Notes: a model not told the origin generated them from the sequence alone. Shown: positions 28,950 through 63,916, numbered from the stretch's first letter. The stretch is 64,000 bases of DNA from Patescibacteria group bacterium (GCA_035288465.1 DATEAH010000005.1:131636-195635), one strand, 5' to 3'. Numbers and translations: made by a program.

Positions 28950-28996
28950 TATAAATCTCCTCTAAGTTTAATTATTGGCTTTCGGCTCGAAATTTG

Positions 28997-29068
28997 TGGC
29001 TGGGGTGGGGCTCGAACCCACAACCTACAGCTTATGAGTCTGTTGCTCTACCATTGAGCTACCCAGCC
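28997..29068 (-). tRNA. tRNA-Met/Ile2 (anticodon CAT), elongator-type
   Basis: GGCTGGG...CCCAGCC acceptor, D-arm GCTCAATGGTAGAGC, loop CTCATAA, T-arm GTGGGTTCGAGCCCCAC. Confidence 0.8.
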
Positions 29069-29194: not shown

Positions 29195-29265
29195 TAGCGG
29201 GGCCTGGATTTGCACCAGGGTCTACTGCTTATGAGACAGTCGAGGTACTACTCCTCCACCCCGCA
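29195..29265 (-). tRNA. tRNA-Met (anticodon CAT), initiator-like
   Basis: 5' ...GCGGGGTGGAG resembles bacterial tRNA-fMet; position 1-72 mismatch; T-loop TGCAAATCC; anticodon loop CTCATAA. Confidence 0.7.
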
Positions 29266-35633: not shown

Positions 35634-35650
35634 AATTGTAAACAAAAAAT

Positions 35651-35721
35651 GGGCCTGGCAGGGATCGAACCTGCGACATGACGCTTATAAGACGTCCGCT
35701 CTGCCACTGAGCTACAGGCCC
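35651..35721 (-). tRNA. tRNA-Ile (anticodon TAT)
   Basis: GGGCCTG/CAGGCCC acceptor, D-arm GCTCAGTGGCAGAGC, anticodon loop CTTATAA (UAU), T-arm GCAGGTTCGATCCCTGC, discriminator A. Confidence 0.7.
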
Positions 35722-59603: not shown

Positions 59604-61559
59604 TTATTGAGTTAATTGAAAGGTATTTGCAGAATCAATTGACCAATCCCAGTCTTGACGATATCCTTGGCCATCTTCTCGCCAAATCCACCATTCGATT
59701 CCATCTACATCAATAAAAGCGCCGGGCGGTGCCCAAGACAAACCATTATGCCAAGTATCTCTGACGGCATAAAATTGATTATTACTTTGGTCCACATAAT
59801 AGCCAAAGGCAACCACCGAATGACCAACCACGCCATCAGGTGAATCTGCAAAGACACTGAACATTACCGGTCTGTCAGCATCAATTTCGCTTTTAAAATT
59901 ATCATAAGTATAATTATCGTAAAAAATATCCTTAAGTGTGGCAGTGTTCTGATAAGCTTCTTTTAATGGGCTTGGCAAGGCTGGATCATCCCAAGCGGCA
60001 TAATCATGCAAACCTGGCGCGGCCATTGAGGTGTATGTCAAATAACCAACTGTCTGCATAAAATCTGCTAATGATTGCGGATTATGACCCACATAAGTAT
60101 TTCCAGCATCGACAAAAGCCTGACTCGCCACCATCGCTTGAGTCCTTGCATTCCAAACATTGGCATCGCCAATAAATAGATTTTGATATTGCGAAAATTG
60201 GTCCCAATATGCAATCATATTTCCACCAGAAGTTGGGGTGCAACCATGATACCAAGGATAATCAGTCATACCAGATAGAACTTTTTTGTTTTGTCCTGAA
60301 CACCCTTCATCAACTAAACCCGAACAATTATCGTCAATACCATTTGAACAAGTCTCAGTGACTCCAGGATGTATCGAAGCGTTATTGTCATTGCAGTCAT
60401 TGCCCCCTTCACCAGCTGAGCCATAATTATCACTGTCAGCATCAATAATGGTATTTAAAACATACCATCTTTGAGAAGTAGTGCTTATTACTCTAACTAA
60501 TGAAATTTCGTCATGATTATCACCTTTAAAATCGCCGAGATACCAAACATCTCTCGAATTACCAAAATCCGCAGCCCAAATTTTTAAGTTTTCGAAAACA
60601 ACACCGTTTGAATAAAAAATATACCATCTTTTAACAATACTGCTCACGTTTCGAACCATGACCAAATCTGAACGATTGTCTTTATTGAAATCTCCCACAA
60701 ACCATGAGTCACCTAAATTGCCAAAATCCGGTGCCCAGATAGTGGGAGCTAAAAAACTGGTTCCAGACGATAGCGAAATATACCATCTTTGAACTCCAGC
60801 ACTGACATTTCGCACCAGGGCTAAATCTGAGCGGCTGTCAGCGTTGAAATCTCCCGCAAACCATTTATCGCCTAAATTGCCAAAGTCGGGAGCCCAAATA
60901 GCGGCGGTGCCAAAATCTGAACCTGATGATAAAATTGTATACCATTTTTGGGTGCCGGCGCTGATATTTTTTACCAAAGCTAAATCTGAGCGGCTATCAG
61001 CGTTGAAATCGCCGACAAACCATTTGTCACCTAAATTGCCAAAATCCGCTTCCCAAATTGCGGCCGCGCCAAATTCAGTACCGGTTGAGGGTAAAACATA
61101 CCAGCGTTGTGCGGCTGAGGAAACATTTCGCACTAAAGCTAAATCATCCTTGCCGTCCCCGGTAAAATCTCCCACAAACCAGGAATCACCTAAGTTGCCA
61201 AAATCCGCTTCCCAAATTGCGGCCGCGCCAAAACTTGTCCCAGTTGATAATTTAACATACCAACGTTGGGTAGAAATGGAAACATTTTTAACAAAAGCCA
61301 AATCATCTTTGCCGTCTCCGGAAAAATCACCCACAAACCAGAAATCTTGGGAGGTATTTGCCGAGTTTGACCAGACTGGAGCTGCTCCAGAAAGAGCAGA
61401 TGCCAAAGTGCCAGCTTCTAATTTTTGGACAATCCGAGGCAGGACAAATTTTAAACATTTATCCAAATATAAATATTCAATCGCAAAAACGACCACTAAA
61501 AGCAAAAAAATGATGGTTAATTTTGAGAAACGATTTGTCTTATTATCCTTGGATTTCAT
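59604..61559 (-). CDS. FG-GAP/VCBS-repeat protein with Cys-rich metal-binding-like linker and C-terminal papain-like (C39-like) cysteine peptidase domain
   Basis: six repeats of FGNLGD(S/K)WF(V/A)GDF(T/N)(G/A)D(G/S)(K/R)(D/S)DLALV(R/K)NVS; DNCS...CS Cys cluster; YHGCTPTSGGNMIAY (Cys) and VVGHSVVAFGYY (His). Confidence 0.55.
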   Translation of the reverse strand: MKSKDNKTNRFSKLTIIFLLLVVVFAIEYLYLDKCLKFVLPRIVQKLEAGTLASALSGAAPVWSNSANTSQDFWFVGDFSGDGKDDLAFVKNVSISTQRWYVKLSTGTSFGAAAIWEADFGNLGDSWFVGDFTGDGKDDLALVRNVSSAAQRWYVLPSTGTEFGAAAIWEADFGNLGDKWFVGDFNADSRSDLALVKNISAGTQKWYTILSSGSDFGTAAIWAPDFGNLGDKWFAGDFNADSRSDLALVRNVSAGVQRWYISLSSGTSFLAPTIWAPDFGNLGDSWFVGDFNKDNRSDLVMVRNVSSIVKRWYIFYSNGVVFENLKIWAADFGNSRDVWYLGDFKGDNHDEISLVRVISTTSQRWYVLNTIIDADSDNYGSAGEGGNDCNDNNASIHPGVTETCSNGIDDNCSGLVDEGCSGQNKKVLSGMTDYPWYHGCTPTSGGNMIAYWDQFSQYQNLFIGDANVWNARTQAMVASQAFVDAGNTYVGHNPQSLADFMQTVGYLTYTSMAAPGLHDYAAWDDPALPSPLKEAYQNTATLKDIFYDNYTYDNFKSEIDADRPVMFSVFADSPDGVVGHSVVAFGYYVDQSNNQFYAVRDTWHNGLSWAPPGAFIDVDGIEWWIWREDGQGYRQDWDWSIDSANTFQLTQ

Positions 61560-62398: not shown

Positions 62399-62504
62399 CG
62401 GCTGATTCCTCCCGGGGGGTCTGATAATGAATCAGTTAATTTATTATCTCAAATAAATTTGAAAAAATCAAGATTATATAGTAAAATAATGATATAAAAT
62501 TTGA

Positions 62505-62781
62505 TCCGGTGTAGCTCAGTGGTAGAGCAGCTCGCTGTATATCGTTGCAGCCCCCAAAGGTAACTTTGAGGTGAAAATCGGGTTAATTGTCGGGAAGCCC
62601 CGCTTAAGTGAGGTAATCCGCAGCCAAGCCCGCCGAAGAGGCGTGGAAGGTTCAGAGACTATACGCCCGATTCCGCACCCGTCAATTTGACGGACGGAAA
62701 TGAGATAGTCCACTCCTAAAGGTAACTTTAGGGTAAAGTGTAACGAGAAGGTCGCTGGTTCGAATCCAGCCACCGGAGCCA
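62505..62781 (+). tRNA. tRNA-Asn (anticodon GTT) interrupted by a ~202-nt intron in the anticodon loop; CCA encoded
   Basis: 5' exon TCCGGTGTAGCTCAGTGGTAGAGCAGCTCGCTGT, 3' exon TAACGAGAAGGTCGCTGGTTCGAATCCAGCCACCGGAGCCA; spliced loop CTGTTAA; closely resembles E. coli tRNA-Asn. Confidence 0.7.
62539..62740 (+). ncRNA. group-I-like intron within tRNA-Asn (between anticodon-loop positions 35/36)
   Basis: 5' exon ends in U pairing with G of an intron GCAG guide-like sequence (U.G); intron ends in G; contains AGAGACTATAC P7-like element; no ORF. Confidence 0.55.
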
Positions 62782-63061
62782 AATCAAAACATCTCAATTT
62801 TATGAGAAATTTTGATTTGTTTTGGCAAGGGCGAGAACCCATGGCGTAAAACATCGTCAAATAAAAAAGTGACATTTTAGCAAAAAGTTTAAAGAATTAA
62901 AACATTTTTGTATCGAGACGGGCTTTAGCCCTTTGAATCGCCTCATCGGCGATCCAGCGAAGAGGTGAATCCCTGCCCCGGAGCCACGAAAAATGACTCA
63001 GCCATAAAATGACTCAGCCACGCTTCGCTGTCTCGTAGCGATAGAAAGGACGCAAATAATC

Positions 63062-63916
63062 ATGCCCAACCCAGAAGAAGAACAGCCATATCTTACTCCA
63101 AAAGAAGTCGCCCGCTTTGATCCCTATGGAGTTAGAAAACAAGCTTTAGCCAAAGAAGCTGAGTCTTTAGAATCCCAAACCCCAGAACCAACTCCAGAAG
63201 AAGCAGTTGAAAGACCAGATATTATTGAAGCTTCTGAGATTATGAAAGATGACTTTTTTGGTCCAGAAGAAATAGGGAAAGCCTTTCAAGTAGAACTAGA
63301 TCCAAATGAAATCCCGGCTCAGCCCTTCTCAAGAGAAGAACTCAAACACTTTCAACAAGAAGGATATTTTCTCTCCCTTAGAATTGATCATGATAAAGAT
63401 GGTAAGCCTTTAACTATTCAACAGCTTAAATCTCTCTATGAACTAGACCCCAAAGATCAAGCTGTCAGAATCTTCTATCAACAAGATTGGTATGAAAAAC
63501 CAGAAAACTCTGATCCTTTCTACACCACCCAAATCCCTAAAGTCCAATGGGCTTTAACTAAAAAAGAAATCCTGCCTGATTCAACCTCTAAAACTCATCA
63601 AGATCAAGAAACCCTCTTGAACCAATATACTCAACAACAATCTCCTCACTTAGAATCAGATCATACTATCCAAAGAAGAGAAGCCGTAGACATCGCCTAT
63701 GATCTAGCATTAGCCTATTTATCCAAAGGTCAAAAACAACTCCCTACAAGATATGATTGGTCTAAAACCCAACTTACTCAAGGGGCGGTTTCCGGCTTCT
63801 TTGCTCCTCTTGGCCACTTTGATGCGAGGGGTTTCGTTGTTCATGCGGTTCGAACTGGGGATTCTGATGGCGATTTGGGGGTTTGCCCCTCGGTAGTTTC
63901 TGAAATTGAGACTTGA
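63062..63916 (+). CDS. hypothetical acidic protein (284 aa)
   Basis: long ORF, Glu/Pro-rich N-term, no recognised domain; mid-GC. Confidence 0.45.
   Translation: MPNPEEEQPYLTPKEVARFDPYGVRKQALAKEAESLESQTPEPTPEEAVERPDIIEASEIMKDDFFGPEEIGKAFQVELDPNEIPAQPFSREELKHFQQEGYFLSLRIDHDKDGKPLTIQQLKSLYELDPKDQAVRIFYQQDWYEKPENSDPFYTTQIPKVQWALTKKEILPDSTSKTHQDQETLLNQYTQQQSPHLESDHTIQRREAVDIAYDLALAYLSKGQKQLPTRYDWSKTQLTQGAVSGFFAPLGHFDARGFVVHAVRTGDSDGDLGVCPSVVSEIET

What the first reader, a model, noticed from the sequence alone, without database searches (positions are those of the whole stretch)
62505..62781. tRNA-Asn(GUU) split by a ~200-nt group-I-like intron in the anticodon loop
The two exons assemble into a canonical tRNA-Asn with acceptor TCCGGTG/CACCGGA, loop CTGTTAA, discriminator G and encoded CCA. 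The insertion at 62539-62740 follows a U that can pair with G of an intronic GCAG. It ends in G and contains an AGAGACTATAC P7-like segment. It also carries an internal direct repeat AAAGGTAACTTT(G/A)GGG near both ends. tRNA group I introns are classically known in tRNA-Leu(UAA), tRNA-fMet, tRNA-Arg and tRNA-Ile. To my knowledge one in tRNA-Asn is not a described case. The intron has no ORF.
Basis: partly seen in the sequence, partly recalled or inferred. Interest (0 to 1): 0.65.

Follow-up and report, generated by a model that had tools for sequence, protein, structure and literature searches.

The report
Self-splicing intron inside tRNA-Asn gene
The asparagine tRNA gene of this Patescibacteria genome is interrupted in its anticodon loop by a 202-base group I intron, which is real but belongs to a class catalogued in 2020 and shown to self-splice in 2025-26, so it is an ordinary new example, not a new discovery.

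Summary
Window 62505-62781 (+) is a tRNA-Asn(GUU) gene. Its anticodon loop is split between nucleotides 35 and 36 by a 202-nt group I intron (62539-62740). Rfam's group I model scores 81 bits (E 4e-19). A complete P1-P10 fold can be written, and it covaries across 17 relatives. The in-silico spliced product is 89% identical over all 75 nt to annotated tRNA-Asn genes.

The "internal direct repeat" is the pair of GUAA-capped hairpins P2 and P9.

The host is a Patescibacteria (CPR) MAG. Group I introns at 35/36 in tRNA-Asn(GUU) were catalogued by Williams (bioRxiv 2020, "Asn.4Ug"). Nakagawa et al. (bioRxiv 2025; mSystems 2026) described them in Patescibacteria and showed precise self-splicing in vitro. 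The window's intron is a homologue of their validated intron. A motif scan found the same intron family in 104 species-representative genomes, and 84 of those allow the same Asn 35/36 reading.

Verdict: real, functional-looking and correctly interpreted, but a new member of a known kind. Interest is low. Splicing of this particular copy was not tested.

The parts
62459..62487 (+). Promoter-like site TTGAAA-17 nt-TAAAAT, ending 18 nt before the tRNA 5' end
   Evidence: Consensus scan, 10 of 12 matches. This is a consensus match only; function is inferred.
62505..62538 (+). tRNA-Asn 5' exon: acceptor 5' strand, D arm, anticodon stem 5' strand, loop C32 U33 G34 U35
   Evidence: ARAGORN -i. The spliced product is called Asn gtt. 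Homology to annotated tRNA-Asn.
62539..62740 (+). Group I intron, 202 nt, no ORF, inserted between tRNA positions 35 and 36
   Evidence: RF00028 81.2 bits, E 4e-19. ARAGORN intron call. Homologues in 104 genomes.
62534..62551 (+). P1: GCUGU (62534-38, exon) pairs with GCAGC (62547-51, internal guide). U62538.G62547 is the wobble at the 5' splice site.
   Evidence: Direct reading. The U.G, G-C, U-A and C-G pairs are invariant in 18 of 18 aligned sequences. Recovered in the MFE fold.
62543..62546 (+). P10 guide CGUU, complementary to AACG at 62742-62745 in the 3' exon
   Evidence: Direct reading. Across relatives the two U-A pairs hold in 15 of 18 and 11 of 18. The outer pairs are variable or mis-aligned, so support is only partial.
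62552..62571 (+). P2 hairpin, 8 bp with one C.A mismatch, GUAA tetraloop.
   Evidence: All 8 pairs show compensatory changes; 93% of cells are paired. L2 is GNRA in all 18 sequences.
62577..62583 (+). P3 5' strand (AUCGGGU), pairing with 62665-62671
   Evidence: Rfam alignment. Found as an inverted repeat. 76% of cells paired, 2 pairs with double changes.
62588..62622 (+). P4 (62588-94 with 62617-22) enclosing J4/5, P5 (62598-62613, UUAA loop, one C.A mismatch) and J5/4
   Evidence: Rfam alignment. P4 is 99% paired and nearly invariant. Distal P5 is poorly aligned by MAFFT, 59-60% paired.
62623..62651 (+). P6 (G62623.U62651, C62624-G62650) and P6a (62629-34 with 62640-46, bulged U62644)
   Evidence: P6 is invariant in 18 of 18. 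P6a varies in length, 53% paired in the MAFFT alignment, with 5 pairs showing double changes.
62655..62661 (+). P7 5' strand G-A(bulge)-GACUA within the conserved CAGAGACUA. The guanosine-binding helix is assigned by analogy.
   Evidence: Pairs with 62706-62711. 99% paired and invariant. The G-binding role is inferred from established group I structure.
62665..62671 (+). P3 3' strand (GCCCGAU). With P7 it forms the P3/P7 pseudoknot.
62673..62697 (+). P8 hairpin (3 bp, internal loop CAC/A, 5 bp, loop AAUUU)
   Evidence: Direct reading and MFE fold. Length varies among relatives, so column counts are weak, 52-72%.
62706..62711 (+). P7 3' strand (UAGUCC), within the conserved GAGAUAGUCC
   Evidence: Invariant across 18 sequences.
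62712..62739 (+). P9.0 (ACU 62712-14 with AGU 62737-39) enclosing P9 (62715-32, 7 bp, GUAA tetraloop). P9 is the second copy of the 'direct repeat'.
   Evidence: P9: 7 of 7 pairs with compensatory changes, 93% paired. P9.0: 2 of 3 pairs covary (AU/CG/UA), 94% paired. The distance from P7' to the intron end is constant at 27-30 nt among measurable family members.
62740..62740 (+). Terminal guanosine (omega-G) at the 3' splice site
   Evidence: Invariant G followed by invariant UAA in 18 of 18 sequences. The G-to-C mutant of the homologous intron fails exon ligation (PMC13011429).
62741..62781 (+). tRNA-Asn 3' exon: U36 A37 A38, anticodon stem 3' strand, variable loop, T arm, acceptor 3' strand, discriminator G, encoded CCA (62779-81)
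   Evidence: ARAGORN. 90% identical to annotated tRNA-Asn of Caulobacter phage CcrSC.

Best explanation
A single transcript, probably started at the promoter-like site about 18 nt upstream, contains tRNA-Asn(GUU) with a 202-nt group I ribozyme between anticodon-loop nucleotides U35 and U36.

Proposed steps, all inferred here by homology:
1. The intron folds into the standard P1-P9 core. Its guide GCAGC pairs with exon nucleotides G31-C32-U33-G34-U35 (tRNA numbering) and places the U35.G wobble at the 5' splice site.
2. Free guanosine bound in P7 attacks that site.
3. The terminal G62740, positioned by P9.0 and by P10 (CGUU with A37-A38-C39-G40), replaces the free guanosine.
4. The freed U35 3'-OH attacks the 3' splice site. 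The exons are ligated to give the loop CUGUUAA.
5. The product is an ordinary tRNA-Asn with discriminator G and encoded CCA.

L2 and L9 are both GUAA tetraloops and presumably clamp the compact fold by tertiary docking, as in other small tRNA introns.

Shown here: the sequence, the fold with covariation, homology and exon identity. Inferred here: catalysis, which has been shown experimentally only for a homologous intron.

The intron has no homing endonuclease. It sits at the same site in related lineages, so it is most likely vertically inherited and must be spliced for the cell to make this tRNA.
For: - RF00028 hit of 81.2 bits, E 4e-19.
- ARAGORN -i gives Asn(gtt) with intron i(35,202) at 62505-62781.
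- A complete P1-P10 model has only two non-canonical pairs.
- On an 18-sequence alignment, 81.4% of cells are paired against 71.4% in shuffles. 37 pairs have changes on both sides and the covariation score is 0.306 against 0.131; 0 of 500 shuffles reach any of these. Slid registers give 34-50% paired.
- P2, P9 and P9.0 covary. P1, P4, P6 and P7 are essentially invariant.
- The MFE fold of the precursor recovers the acceptor, D and T stems plus P1, P2, P3, P8 and P9, with z = -3.8.
- The spliced product is 89% identical over 75 of 75 nt to annotated tRNA-Asn. The 15 best full-length annotated matches are all Asn; two lower-ranked partial matches in the listing are annotated Lys and Thr.
- An uninterrupted tRNA-Asn with the identical anticodon arm exists in a metagenome contig.
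- The host is Patescibacteria.
- A homologous intron at the same site self-splices precisely in vitro, and its omega-G-to-C mutant is blocked (PMC13011429). It shares GGTAATCCGCAGCCAAGCC, GGAAGGTTCAGAGACTA and ATGAGATAGTCCAC with the window.
- The family is present in 104 representative genomes. In the set of 105 (104 loci plus the window), 85 allow the Asn 35/36 reading, and all 85 spliced products are called Asn gtt.
Against: - There are no transcript or splicing data for this copy.
- P2 and P5 each contain one C.A mismatch.
- P10 is only 4 bp and is not evident in all relatives, for example L079.
- Distal P5, P6a and P8 show only 52-60% pairing in the MAFFT alignment. I attribute this to length variation and mis-alignment but did not prove it with a structure-guided alignment.
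- Only 64 kb of a contig of about 207 kb was visible, and the MAG may have further contigs. I cannot say whether this is the only tRNA-Asn gene.
- Six metagenome copies of the locus are 100% identical over the gene, but their mismatches are clustered elsewhere. This says little about selection on the intron.
Confidence: 0.93

Rival explanations
1. The gene is tRNA-Thr(UGU) with the intron at 33/34, that is, splice sites shifted 2 nt upstream (62536|62739). This is the reading that ARAGORN and tFind often give for this intron family.
For: In silico, joining 62536 to 62739 also gives a cloverleaf that ARAGORN calls Thr(tgt). U62536 and G62738 satisfy the 'U before, G at end' rule. ARAGORN -i family members Thr; 25 of these allow the shifted Asn reading. 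The paper documents the same ambiguity.
Against: - U62536 pairs with A62549 by a Watson-Crick pair, not the U.G wobble. The wobble U62538.G62547 is invariant in 18 of 18 sequences.
- G62738 lies inside P9.0. That column covaries (AU 10, CG 6, UA 2), so a G there is absent in most relatives, whereas G62740 is invariant.
- The tRNA body (UCC...GGAG, discriminator G) matches annotated tRNA-Asn at 89% over its full length.
- Sequencing of ligated exons from the homologous intron showed the 35/36 junction.
Confidence: 0.02
2. The tRNA-Asn gene is a pseudogene disrupted by a dead or degenerating group I intron. A second, intact tRNA-Asn elsewhere in the genome does the work.
For: No expression data are available. 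Only part of the genome was visible. There are two C.A mismatches in peripheral helices.
Against: - All conserved core segments (J3/4, P4, P6, J6/7, P7, J8/7, omega-G, U.G) are identical to those of the validated intron and invariant in the family.
- The exons form a flawless cloverleaf apart from a G27.A43 pair. That pair is also present in the uninterrupted homologue L111.
- There is a promoter-like site upstream.
- No other tRNA-Asn lies in the 64-kb window.
Confidence: 0.04
3. The intron is a recently acquired mobile element, gained by homing or horizontal transfer, and not an inherited resident of this tRNA gene.
For: Longer family members (over 500 nt) exist, with the extra sequence in the 5' part. 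The paper reports HNH homing endonucleases in four Patescibacteria tRNA-Asn introns. By record titles the family occurs in several phyla, and one copy lies in a viral contig (L129).
Against: - This copy has no ORF and is only 202 nt.
- Its nearest relatives (about 70-73% identity) are in other Microgenomatia-type Patescibacteria (Roizman-, Collier-, Levybacteria), at the same site. That divergence is typical of vertical descent.
- Its P10 guide matches its own 3' exon.
- Several 'non-Patescibacteria' titles look mislabelled.
Confidence: 0.1

Closest known systems
Group I introns at position 35/36 of tRNA-Asn(GUU) in Patescibacteria (Nakagawa et al., mSystems 2026, PMC13011429; bioRxiv 10.1101/2025.07.03.662931). 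The validated example is from GCA_016700035.1. Also the 'Asn.4Ug' class of Williams 2020 (bioRxiv 10.1101/2020.01.27.920355).
   Same: Same host phylum, same tRNA and anticodon, and same insertion site. Same guide GCAGC pairing with CUGU, and same U.G and omega-G. Identical core blocks (GGTAATCCGCAGCCAAGCC, GGAAGGTTCAGAGACTA, ATGAGATAGTCCAC). GNRA-capped P2 and P9. About 66% identity over the aligned 272 positions.
   Different: The window's copy is shorter (202 vs 234 nt). It lacks the roughly 25-30-nt insertion between P7 and P3' that I read as P7.1/P7.2 (P7-to-P7' distance 40 nt vs about 56-62). Comparably short introns are already in their tables (Asp 184 and 196 nt, Asn 205 nt). Its P2 and P9 are unusually alike, 19 of 23. 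The exact sequence is not among the parts of their tables I could read, nor in the 104 representative genomes (best 73%).
Azoarcus tRNA-Ile(CAU) and cyanobacterial tRNA-Leu(UAA)/tRNA-fMet group I introns (subgroup IC3).
   Same: These are self-splicing group I ribozymes in bacterial tRNA anticodon loops. They are about 200-250 nt and ORF-less, with a compact P2-P9 architecture and GNRA tetraloops on L2 and L9. Those structural points are from my own knowledge of the Azoarcus structure. The tRNA-Leu intron served as positive control in PMC13011429.
   Different: Different insertion sites: 36/37, 34/35 and 33/34, against 35/36 here. Different guide sequences and core sequence (for example GGCAATCCTGAGCCAAGCC in the Leu introns). 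The paper assigns them to IC3, whereas it classes Patescibacteria tRNA introns as IA. I could not run the subgroup models on this copy.
Phage subgroup IA introns (T4 td, Twort)
   Same: The P4-P6/P7 core motif used for the scan also occurs in 35 viral contigs. The paper places the Patescibacteria tRNA introns in IA together with phage-type introns.
   Different: Those interrupt protein-coding genes, usually carry P7.1/P7.2 and often carry homing endonuclease ORFs (my own knowledge). Only 1 of the 35 viral hits is in a tRNA-Asn-like gene.
Archaeal/eukaryotic bulge-helix-bulge tRNA introns
   Same: They also interrupt the anticodon loop region of tRNA genes.
   Different: They are short, typically at 37/38, and are removed by a protein endonuclease and ligase (established knowledge). 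Here a full group I ribozyme core is present and the host is a bacterium. This is not a member of that class.

Membership tests
Group I intron (Rfam RF00028) | Covariance-model score above the curated gathering threshold | tested here: met
   81.2 bits against a threshold of 50, E 4.4e-19.
Group I intron (Rfam RF00028) | P1 helix between the 5' exon end and an internal guide, with a U.G wobble at the 5' splice site | tested here: met
   GCUGU/GCAGC with U62538.G62547. The U.G pair and the three adjacent pairs are invariant in 18 of 18 sequences.
Group I intron (Rfam RF00028) | Terminal guanosine (omega-G) at the 3' splice site | tested here: met
   G62740, an invariant column in alignment A1.
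Group I intron (Rfam RF00028) | Conserved core P3-P8 including the P3/P7 pseudoknot, supported by covariation | tested here: met
   All helices can be written. 81% of cells paired against 71% in shuffles, 37 pairs with double changes, 0 of 500 shuffles as high. P4, P6 and P7 are invariant and so uninformative. P5 distal, P6a and P8 are weak because of alignment.
Group I intron (Rfam RF00028) | Guanosine-dependent self-splicing activity | not testable with these tools
   Shown only for a homologue (GCA_016700035.1) in PMC13011429.
Patescibacteria tRNA-Asn(GUU) 35/36 intron class (Nakagawa et al. 2026) | The host gene is tRNA-Asn with anticodon GUU | tested here: met
   ARAGORN on the spliced and unspliced sequence. 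The best full-length annotated matches are tRNA-Asn. An intron-less homologue exists, L111.
Patescibacteria tRNA-Asn(GUU) 35/36 intron class (Nakagawa et al. 2026) | Insertion between anticodon-loop positions 35 and 36 | tested here: met
   CUGU|...G|UAA. Only this junction has both flanking residues invariant in the family.
Patescibacteria tRNA-Asn(GUU) 35/36 intron class (Nakagawa et al. 2026) | The host organism belongs to Patescibacteria | tested here: met
   The window's LepA, FtsH and OtsA are exact matches to NCBI proteins HLC38794.1, HLC38797.1 and HLC38783.1 of 'Patescibacteria group bacterium'.
Patescibacteria tRNA-Asn(GUU) 35/36 intron class (Nakagawa et al. 2026) | Sequence homology to the published and validated members | tested here: met
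   BLAST E 5e-13 and 2e-12 to the validated sequence, 66% identity over 272 aligned positions, identical core blocks.
Patescibacteria tRNA-Asn(GUU) 35/36 intron class (Nakagawa et al. 2026) | Structural subgroup IA by subgroup-specific covariance models | not tested
   The subgroup models are not available here. This copy lacks the insertion between P7 and P3' seen in the validated intron, so its subgroup call is open.
Homing-endonuclease-bearing (mobile) group I intron | An ORF for an HNH, LAGLIDADG, GIY-YIG or PD-(D/E)XK endonuclease inside the intron | tested here: not met
   The intron is 202 nt with no sense-strand ORF of at least 40 aa. Endonuclease-bearing relatives are over 500 nt.

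The most novel reading that the evidence does not exclude
The window's copy may represent a distinct minimal architecture within the tRNA-Asn intron family. It is 202 nt, has no P7.1/P7.2-type insertion, and has near-identical GUAA-capped P2 and P9 clamps (19 of 23 nt, against 5-15 of 22-23 in relatives). This lineage may have converged on an Azoarcus-like IC3 layout. It may also act as more than a passive passenger, for example by gating tRNA-Asn supply on guanosine or Mg2+ availability in a regulator-poor cell, as Nakagawa et al. speculate. Nothing here tests the regulatory idea. Comparably short introns of the class are already published.
Probability: 0.08. Interest if true: 0.45.

Novelty: new member of a known kind. 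Interest (0 to 1): 0.13.

Why it matters
- Annotation: default tRNA finders miss this gene, as the default ARAGORN run did. The MAG would therefore appear to lack tRNA-Asn and would be scored as less complete. Recognising the intron restores a full tRNA set.
- Survey data: the locus adds one more data point, plus a scan showing the family in 104 species-representative genomes, to the recent finding that Patescibacteria keep self-splicing introns in essential tRNA genes despite extreme genome reduction.
- New biology: none. The tRNA, the insertion site, the phylum and the self-splicing chemistry are all published.

Tried and rejected
- Default ARAGORN run: it missed the gene. The intron option was needed.
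- First genome-contig scan, with the neighbouring 651-aa FG-GAP protein: found no relatives and gave no taxonomy.
- tblastn of window ORFs against the 104 family loci, to get taxonomy or synteny: uninformative. The hits to the minus-strand ORF 62516-62875 only mirror the conserved RNA. Taxonomy came instead from an exact protein look-up.
- The window's own genome is not among the 185k species representatives. The best intron match there is 73%.
- Brute-force enumeration of all U/G splice-site pairs across the loci gave 1.2 million candidates and was abandoned. I used ARAGORN -i boundaries plus a targeted CTGT|...G|TAA test.
- Population-level conservation: six metagenome copies have 0 differences in the gene. 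In the most divergent copy the 100 mismatches are clustered elsewhere and a whole kilobase around the gene is identical. This is not evidence specific to the intron.
- P10 covariation across the family is only partly supported and depends on the alignment. I did not pursue it.
- I did not build a covariance model. The model would have about 277 positions and would probably exceed the calibration limit, and the Rfam score and homology had already settled identity.
- Readings considered and rejected: the Thr(UGU) 33/34 reading, a pseudogene, a BHB-type intron and a group II intron. No RF00029 hit appeared in the gathering-threshold scan.
- Literature: searches with 'tRNA-Asn' and 'tRNADB-CE' returned nothing relevant. 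'tRNAAsn' found the key papers.

Full report
**Observation**

- The default tRNA scan finds four other tRNAs in the window but not this one.
- Rfam's group I intron model RF00028 scores 81.2 bits (gathering score 50, E 4.4e-19) at 62451-62732. The first roughly 90 aligned bases of that hit are a mis-placement of the model's P1/P2 onto upstream AT-rich DNA and the tRNA 5' half. From about 62575 the core is aligned with high posterior probability.
- Joining 62538 to 62741 in silico gives a 75-nt tRNA that ARAGORN calls Asn(gtt).
- ARAGORN run with its intron option on the raw window returns exactly [62505,62781], Asn(gtt), with a 202-nt intron between gctgt and taacg.
- The intron has no sense-strand ORF of at least 40 aa. 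A 119-aa minus-strand ORF over the gene is spurious.
- The direct repeat is real: 62553-62575 versus 62715-62737, 19 of 23 identical.

**Anatomy**

Reading the sequence against the Rfam alignment, I could write a complete group I secondary structure.
- P1: GCUGU (62534-38) with GCAGC (62547-51), with U62538.G62547 at the 5' splice site.
- P10: CGUU (62543-46) with AACG (62742-45).
- P2: 62552-71, GUAA loop.
- P3: 62577-83 with 62665-71.
- P4: 62588-94 with 62617-22.
- P5: 62598-613.
- P6/P6a: 62623-51.
- P7: 62655-61 with 62706-11, with a bulged A.
- P8: 62673-97.
- P9.0: ACU (62712-14) with AGU (62737-39).
- P9: 62715-32, GUAA loop.
- Omega-G: G62740.

Only two pairs are non-canonical, a C.A in P2 and a C.A in P5.

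Thermodynamic folding of the 277-nt precursor recovers the acceptor, D and T stems plus P1, P2, P3, P8 and P9.0/P9. The energy is -99 kcal/mol against -82 +/- 4.5 for shuffles (z = -3.8). A promoter-like TTGAAA-17-TAAAAT ends 18 nt upstream of the gene. No intrinsic terminator-like site was found.

**Relatives and covariation**

I scanned one genome per species (185,579 species) for two core blocks, GGTAATCCGCAGCCAAGC and GGTTCAGAGACTA, separated by 5-35 nt. The scan found 104 loci.
- By record title most are Patescibacteria: Saccharibacteria, Collier-, Roizman-, Levy-, Davies-, Nealson-, Peregrini- and Berkelbacteria, among others.
- In the set of 105 (104 loci plus the window), 85 allow the CUGU|...G|UAA reading, and all 85 spliced products are called tRNA-Asn(gtt).
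- Intron lengths run from 191 to 632 nt. A cluster above 500 nt carries its extra sequence in the 5' part.

I aligned the window with 16 compact relatives and the published validated intron, then counted my structure on that alignment.
- 81.4% of cells are paired, against 71.4 +/- 0.7% in shuffles.
- 37 pairs have changes on both sides, against 26 in shuffles.
- The covariation score is 0.306, against 0.131 in shuffles.
- None of 500 shuffles reaches any of these values.
- Sliding the 3' partners by 1-3 columns gives only 34-50% paired.
- P2 (8 of 8 pairs), P9 (7 of 7) and P9.0 (2 of 3) show compensatory changes at 93-94% pairing.
- P1, P4, P6 and P7 are 90-100% paired but essentially invariant, so they say nothing either way.
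- Distal P5, P6a and P8 score only 52-60%. I attribute this to length variation that MAFFT does not handle, but I did not prove it.

**Which tRNA, and which junction**

A 2-nt shift (62536|62739) gives a formally possible tRNA-Thr(UGU). This is the mis-call that the literature reports for this family. Four results argue against it.
- The invariant wobble is U62538.G62547, whereas U62536 would pair with A62549.
- G62738 sits in a covarying P9.0 column where most relatives do not have G, whereas G62740 and the following UAA are invariant.
- The spliced Asn product is 89% identical over all 75 nt to annotated tRNA-Asn of Caulobacter phages. The 15 best full-length annotated matches are all Asn; two lower-ranked partial matches are annotated Lys and Thr. 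The best E. coli-collection matches are also tRNA-Asn.
- A metagenome contig carries an uninterrupted tRNA-Asn that has the identical anticodon arm. It differs from the window's exons only in the acceptor stem and one D-loop base.

**Host**

The window encodes LepA, FtsH, MurJ and ComEC. Its LepA, FtsH and trehalose-phosphate synthase are exact matches to NCBI proteins HLC38794.1, HLC38797.1 and HLC38783.1 from a "Patescibacteria group bacterium" MAG. The same locus occurs in several groundwater-type metagenome assemblies with an identical gene. That identity is uninformative about selection, because the differences between copies are clustered elsewhere. The nearest intron relatives, at 70-73% identity, are in Roizman-, Collier- and Levybacteria.

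**Mechanism**

The best explanation is ordinary group I self-splicing.
- The guide GCAGC pairs with exon nucleotides G31-U35 and presents the U35.G wobble.
- Exogenous guanosine bound in P7 cleaves the 5' splice site.
- Omega-G62740, positioned by P9.0 and P10, then occupies the same site.
- The exons are ligated to restore the loop CUGUUAA.

The fold, the homology and the exon identity are shown here. Catalysis is inferred.

The inference is strong. Nakagawa et al. (PMC13011429) transcribed a homologous Patescibacteria tRNA-Asn gene (GCA_016700035.1). They observed GTP-dependent splicing products and sequenced the ligated exons at 35/36. An omega-G-to-C mutant accumulated the intron-3' exon intermediate. 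That intron shares the guide and the blocks GGTAATCCGCAGCCAAGCC, GGAAGGTTCAGAGACTA and ATGAGATAGTCCAC with the window.

One inference of my own: the guide recognises C32-U33-G34-U35, which is common to all GUN-anticodon tRNAs. This fits the paper's finding of 35/36 introns in Asn, Asp and Tyr tRNAs.

**Comparison with what is known, and novelty**

- Williams (bioRxiv 2020) expanded the classes from 4 to 21. Nakagawa et al. cite that preprint's "Asn.4Ug" class.
- Nakagawa et al. (bioRxiv July 2025; mSystems January 2026) report 15 tRNA-Asn(GUU) and 3 tRNA-Asp(GUC) genes with 35/36 group I introns in 95 complete Patescibacteria genomes.
- They also report 28 such insertions among 4,934 complete bacterial genomes, 19 of them in Patescibacteria.

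The window's intron meets every testable defining feature of that class. It differs only in detail.
- It is compact and lacks the 25-30-nt insertion between P7 and P3' present in the validated intron. Comparably short members (184-205 nt) are already in their tables.
- Its P2 and P9 are unusually similar to each other: 19 of 23, against 5-15 of 22-23 in 17 relatives. I cannot explain this beyond chance or internal conversion.
- I could not run the subgroup (IA or IC) models.

**Verdict**

The structural interpretation is correct. The novelty claim is refuted by the literature. This is a new member of a known, experimentally validated kind. Its practical value is for annotation, since it rescues a "missing" tRNA-Asn in a CPR MAG. 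Interest is 0.13.

Noticed in passing
window 35650-35721 (-): A tRNA with anticodon TAT, called Ile(UAU) by ARAGORN and matching Rfam tRNA at 70.9 bits. From my own knowledge, most bacteria read AUA with a modified CAU tRNA, so a genomic UAU tRNA-Ile is uncommon.
   Followed up: no
window 28996-29068 and 29195-29265 (-): Two CAT-anticodon tRNAs lie 126 nt apart. The second has an initiator-like 5' end (TGCGGGG) and a mismatched 1-72 pair. The first looks like an elongator Met or Ile2.
   Followed up: no
window 62991-63021 (+): A tandem duplication of AAAATGACTCAGCCA, containing the palindrome TGACTCA, lies about 40 nt upstream of ORF 63062-63916. It may be a regulator binding site.
   Followed up: no
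L112-L146 (IMG/VR viral contigs): The same P4-P6/P7 core motif occurs in 35 viral contigs, including giant-virus MAGs (GVMAG) and phage contigs over 300 kb. Only L129 places it in a tRNA-Asn-like gene (intron 544 nt). What the other 34 interrupt was not examined.
   Followed up: partly
L012, L013, L015 compared with L090, L046, L030: MAGs titled 'uncultured Pseudomonadales' carry tRNA-Asn plus intron that is 86-94% identical to Collierbacteria. L012 and L013 also share 1.3-3 kb of syntenic flank at 68-79% identity; L015 shares only the gene and a 49-nt stretch. The record titles are probably wrong, so counts of this intron outside Patescibacteria based on titles are unreliable.
   Followed up: partly
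window 62553-62575 and 62715-62737: P2 and P9 of this intron are 19 of 23 identical. In 17 relatives the same two hairpins share only 5-15 of 22-23 positions. This is specific to the window; the cause is unknown (chance or internal sequence conversion).
   Followed up: yes
window 59604-61559 (-): A 651-aa secreted-looking protein has FG-GAP, MopE-like and Peptidase_C39-like Pfam hits (faint to weak). It has internal DNA repeats about 159 nt apart (self-hits at 74% identity). No relative was found in the species-representative genomes.
   Followed up: partly
window 62516-62875 (-): A 119-aa ORF antisense to the tRNA and intron. Its tblastn hits in other loci only reflect the conserved RNA sequence. 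It should not be annotated as a gene.
   Followed up: yes
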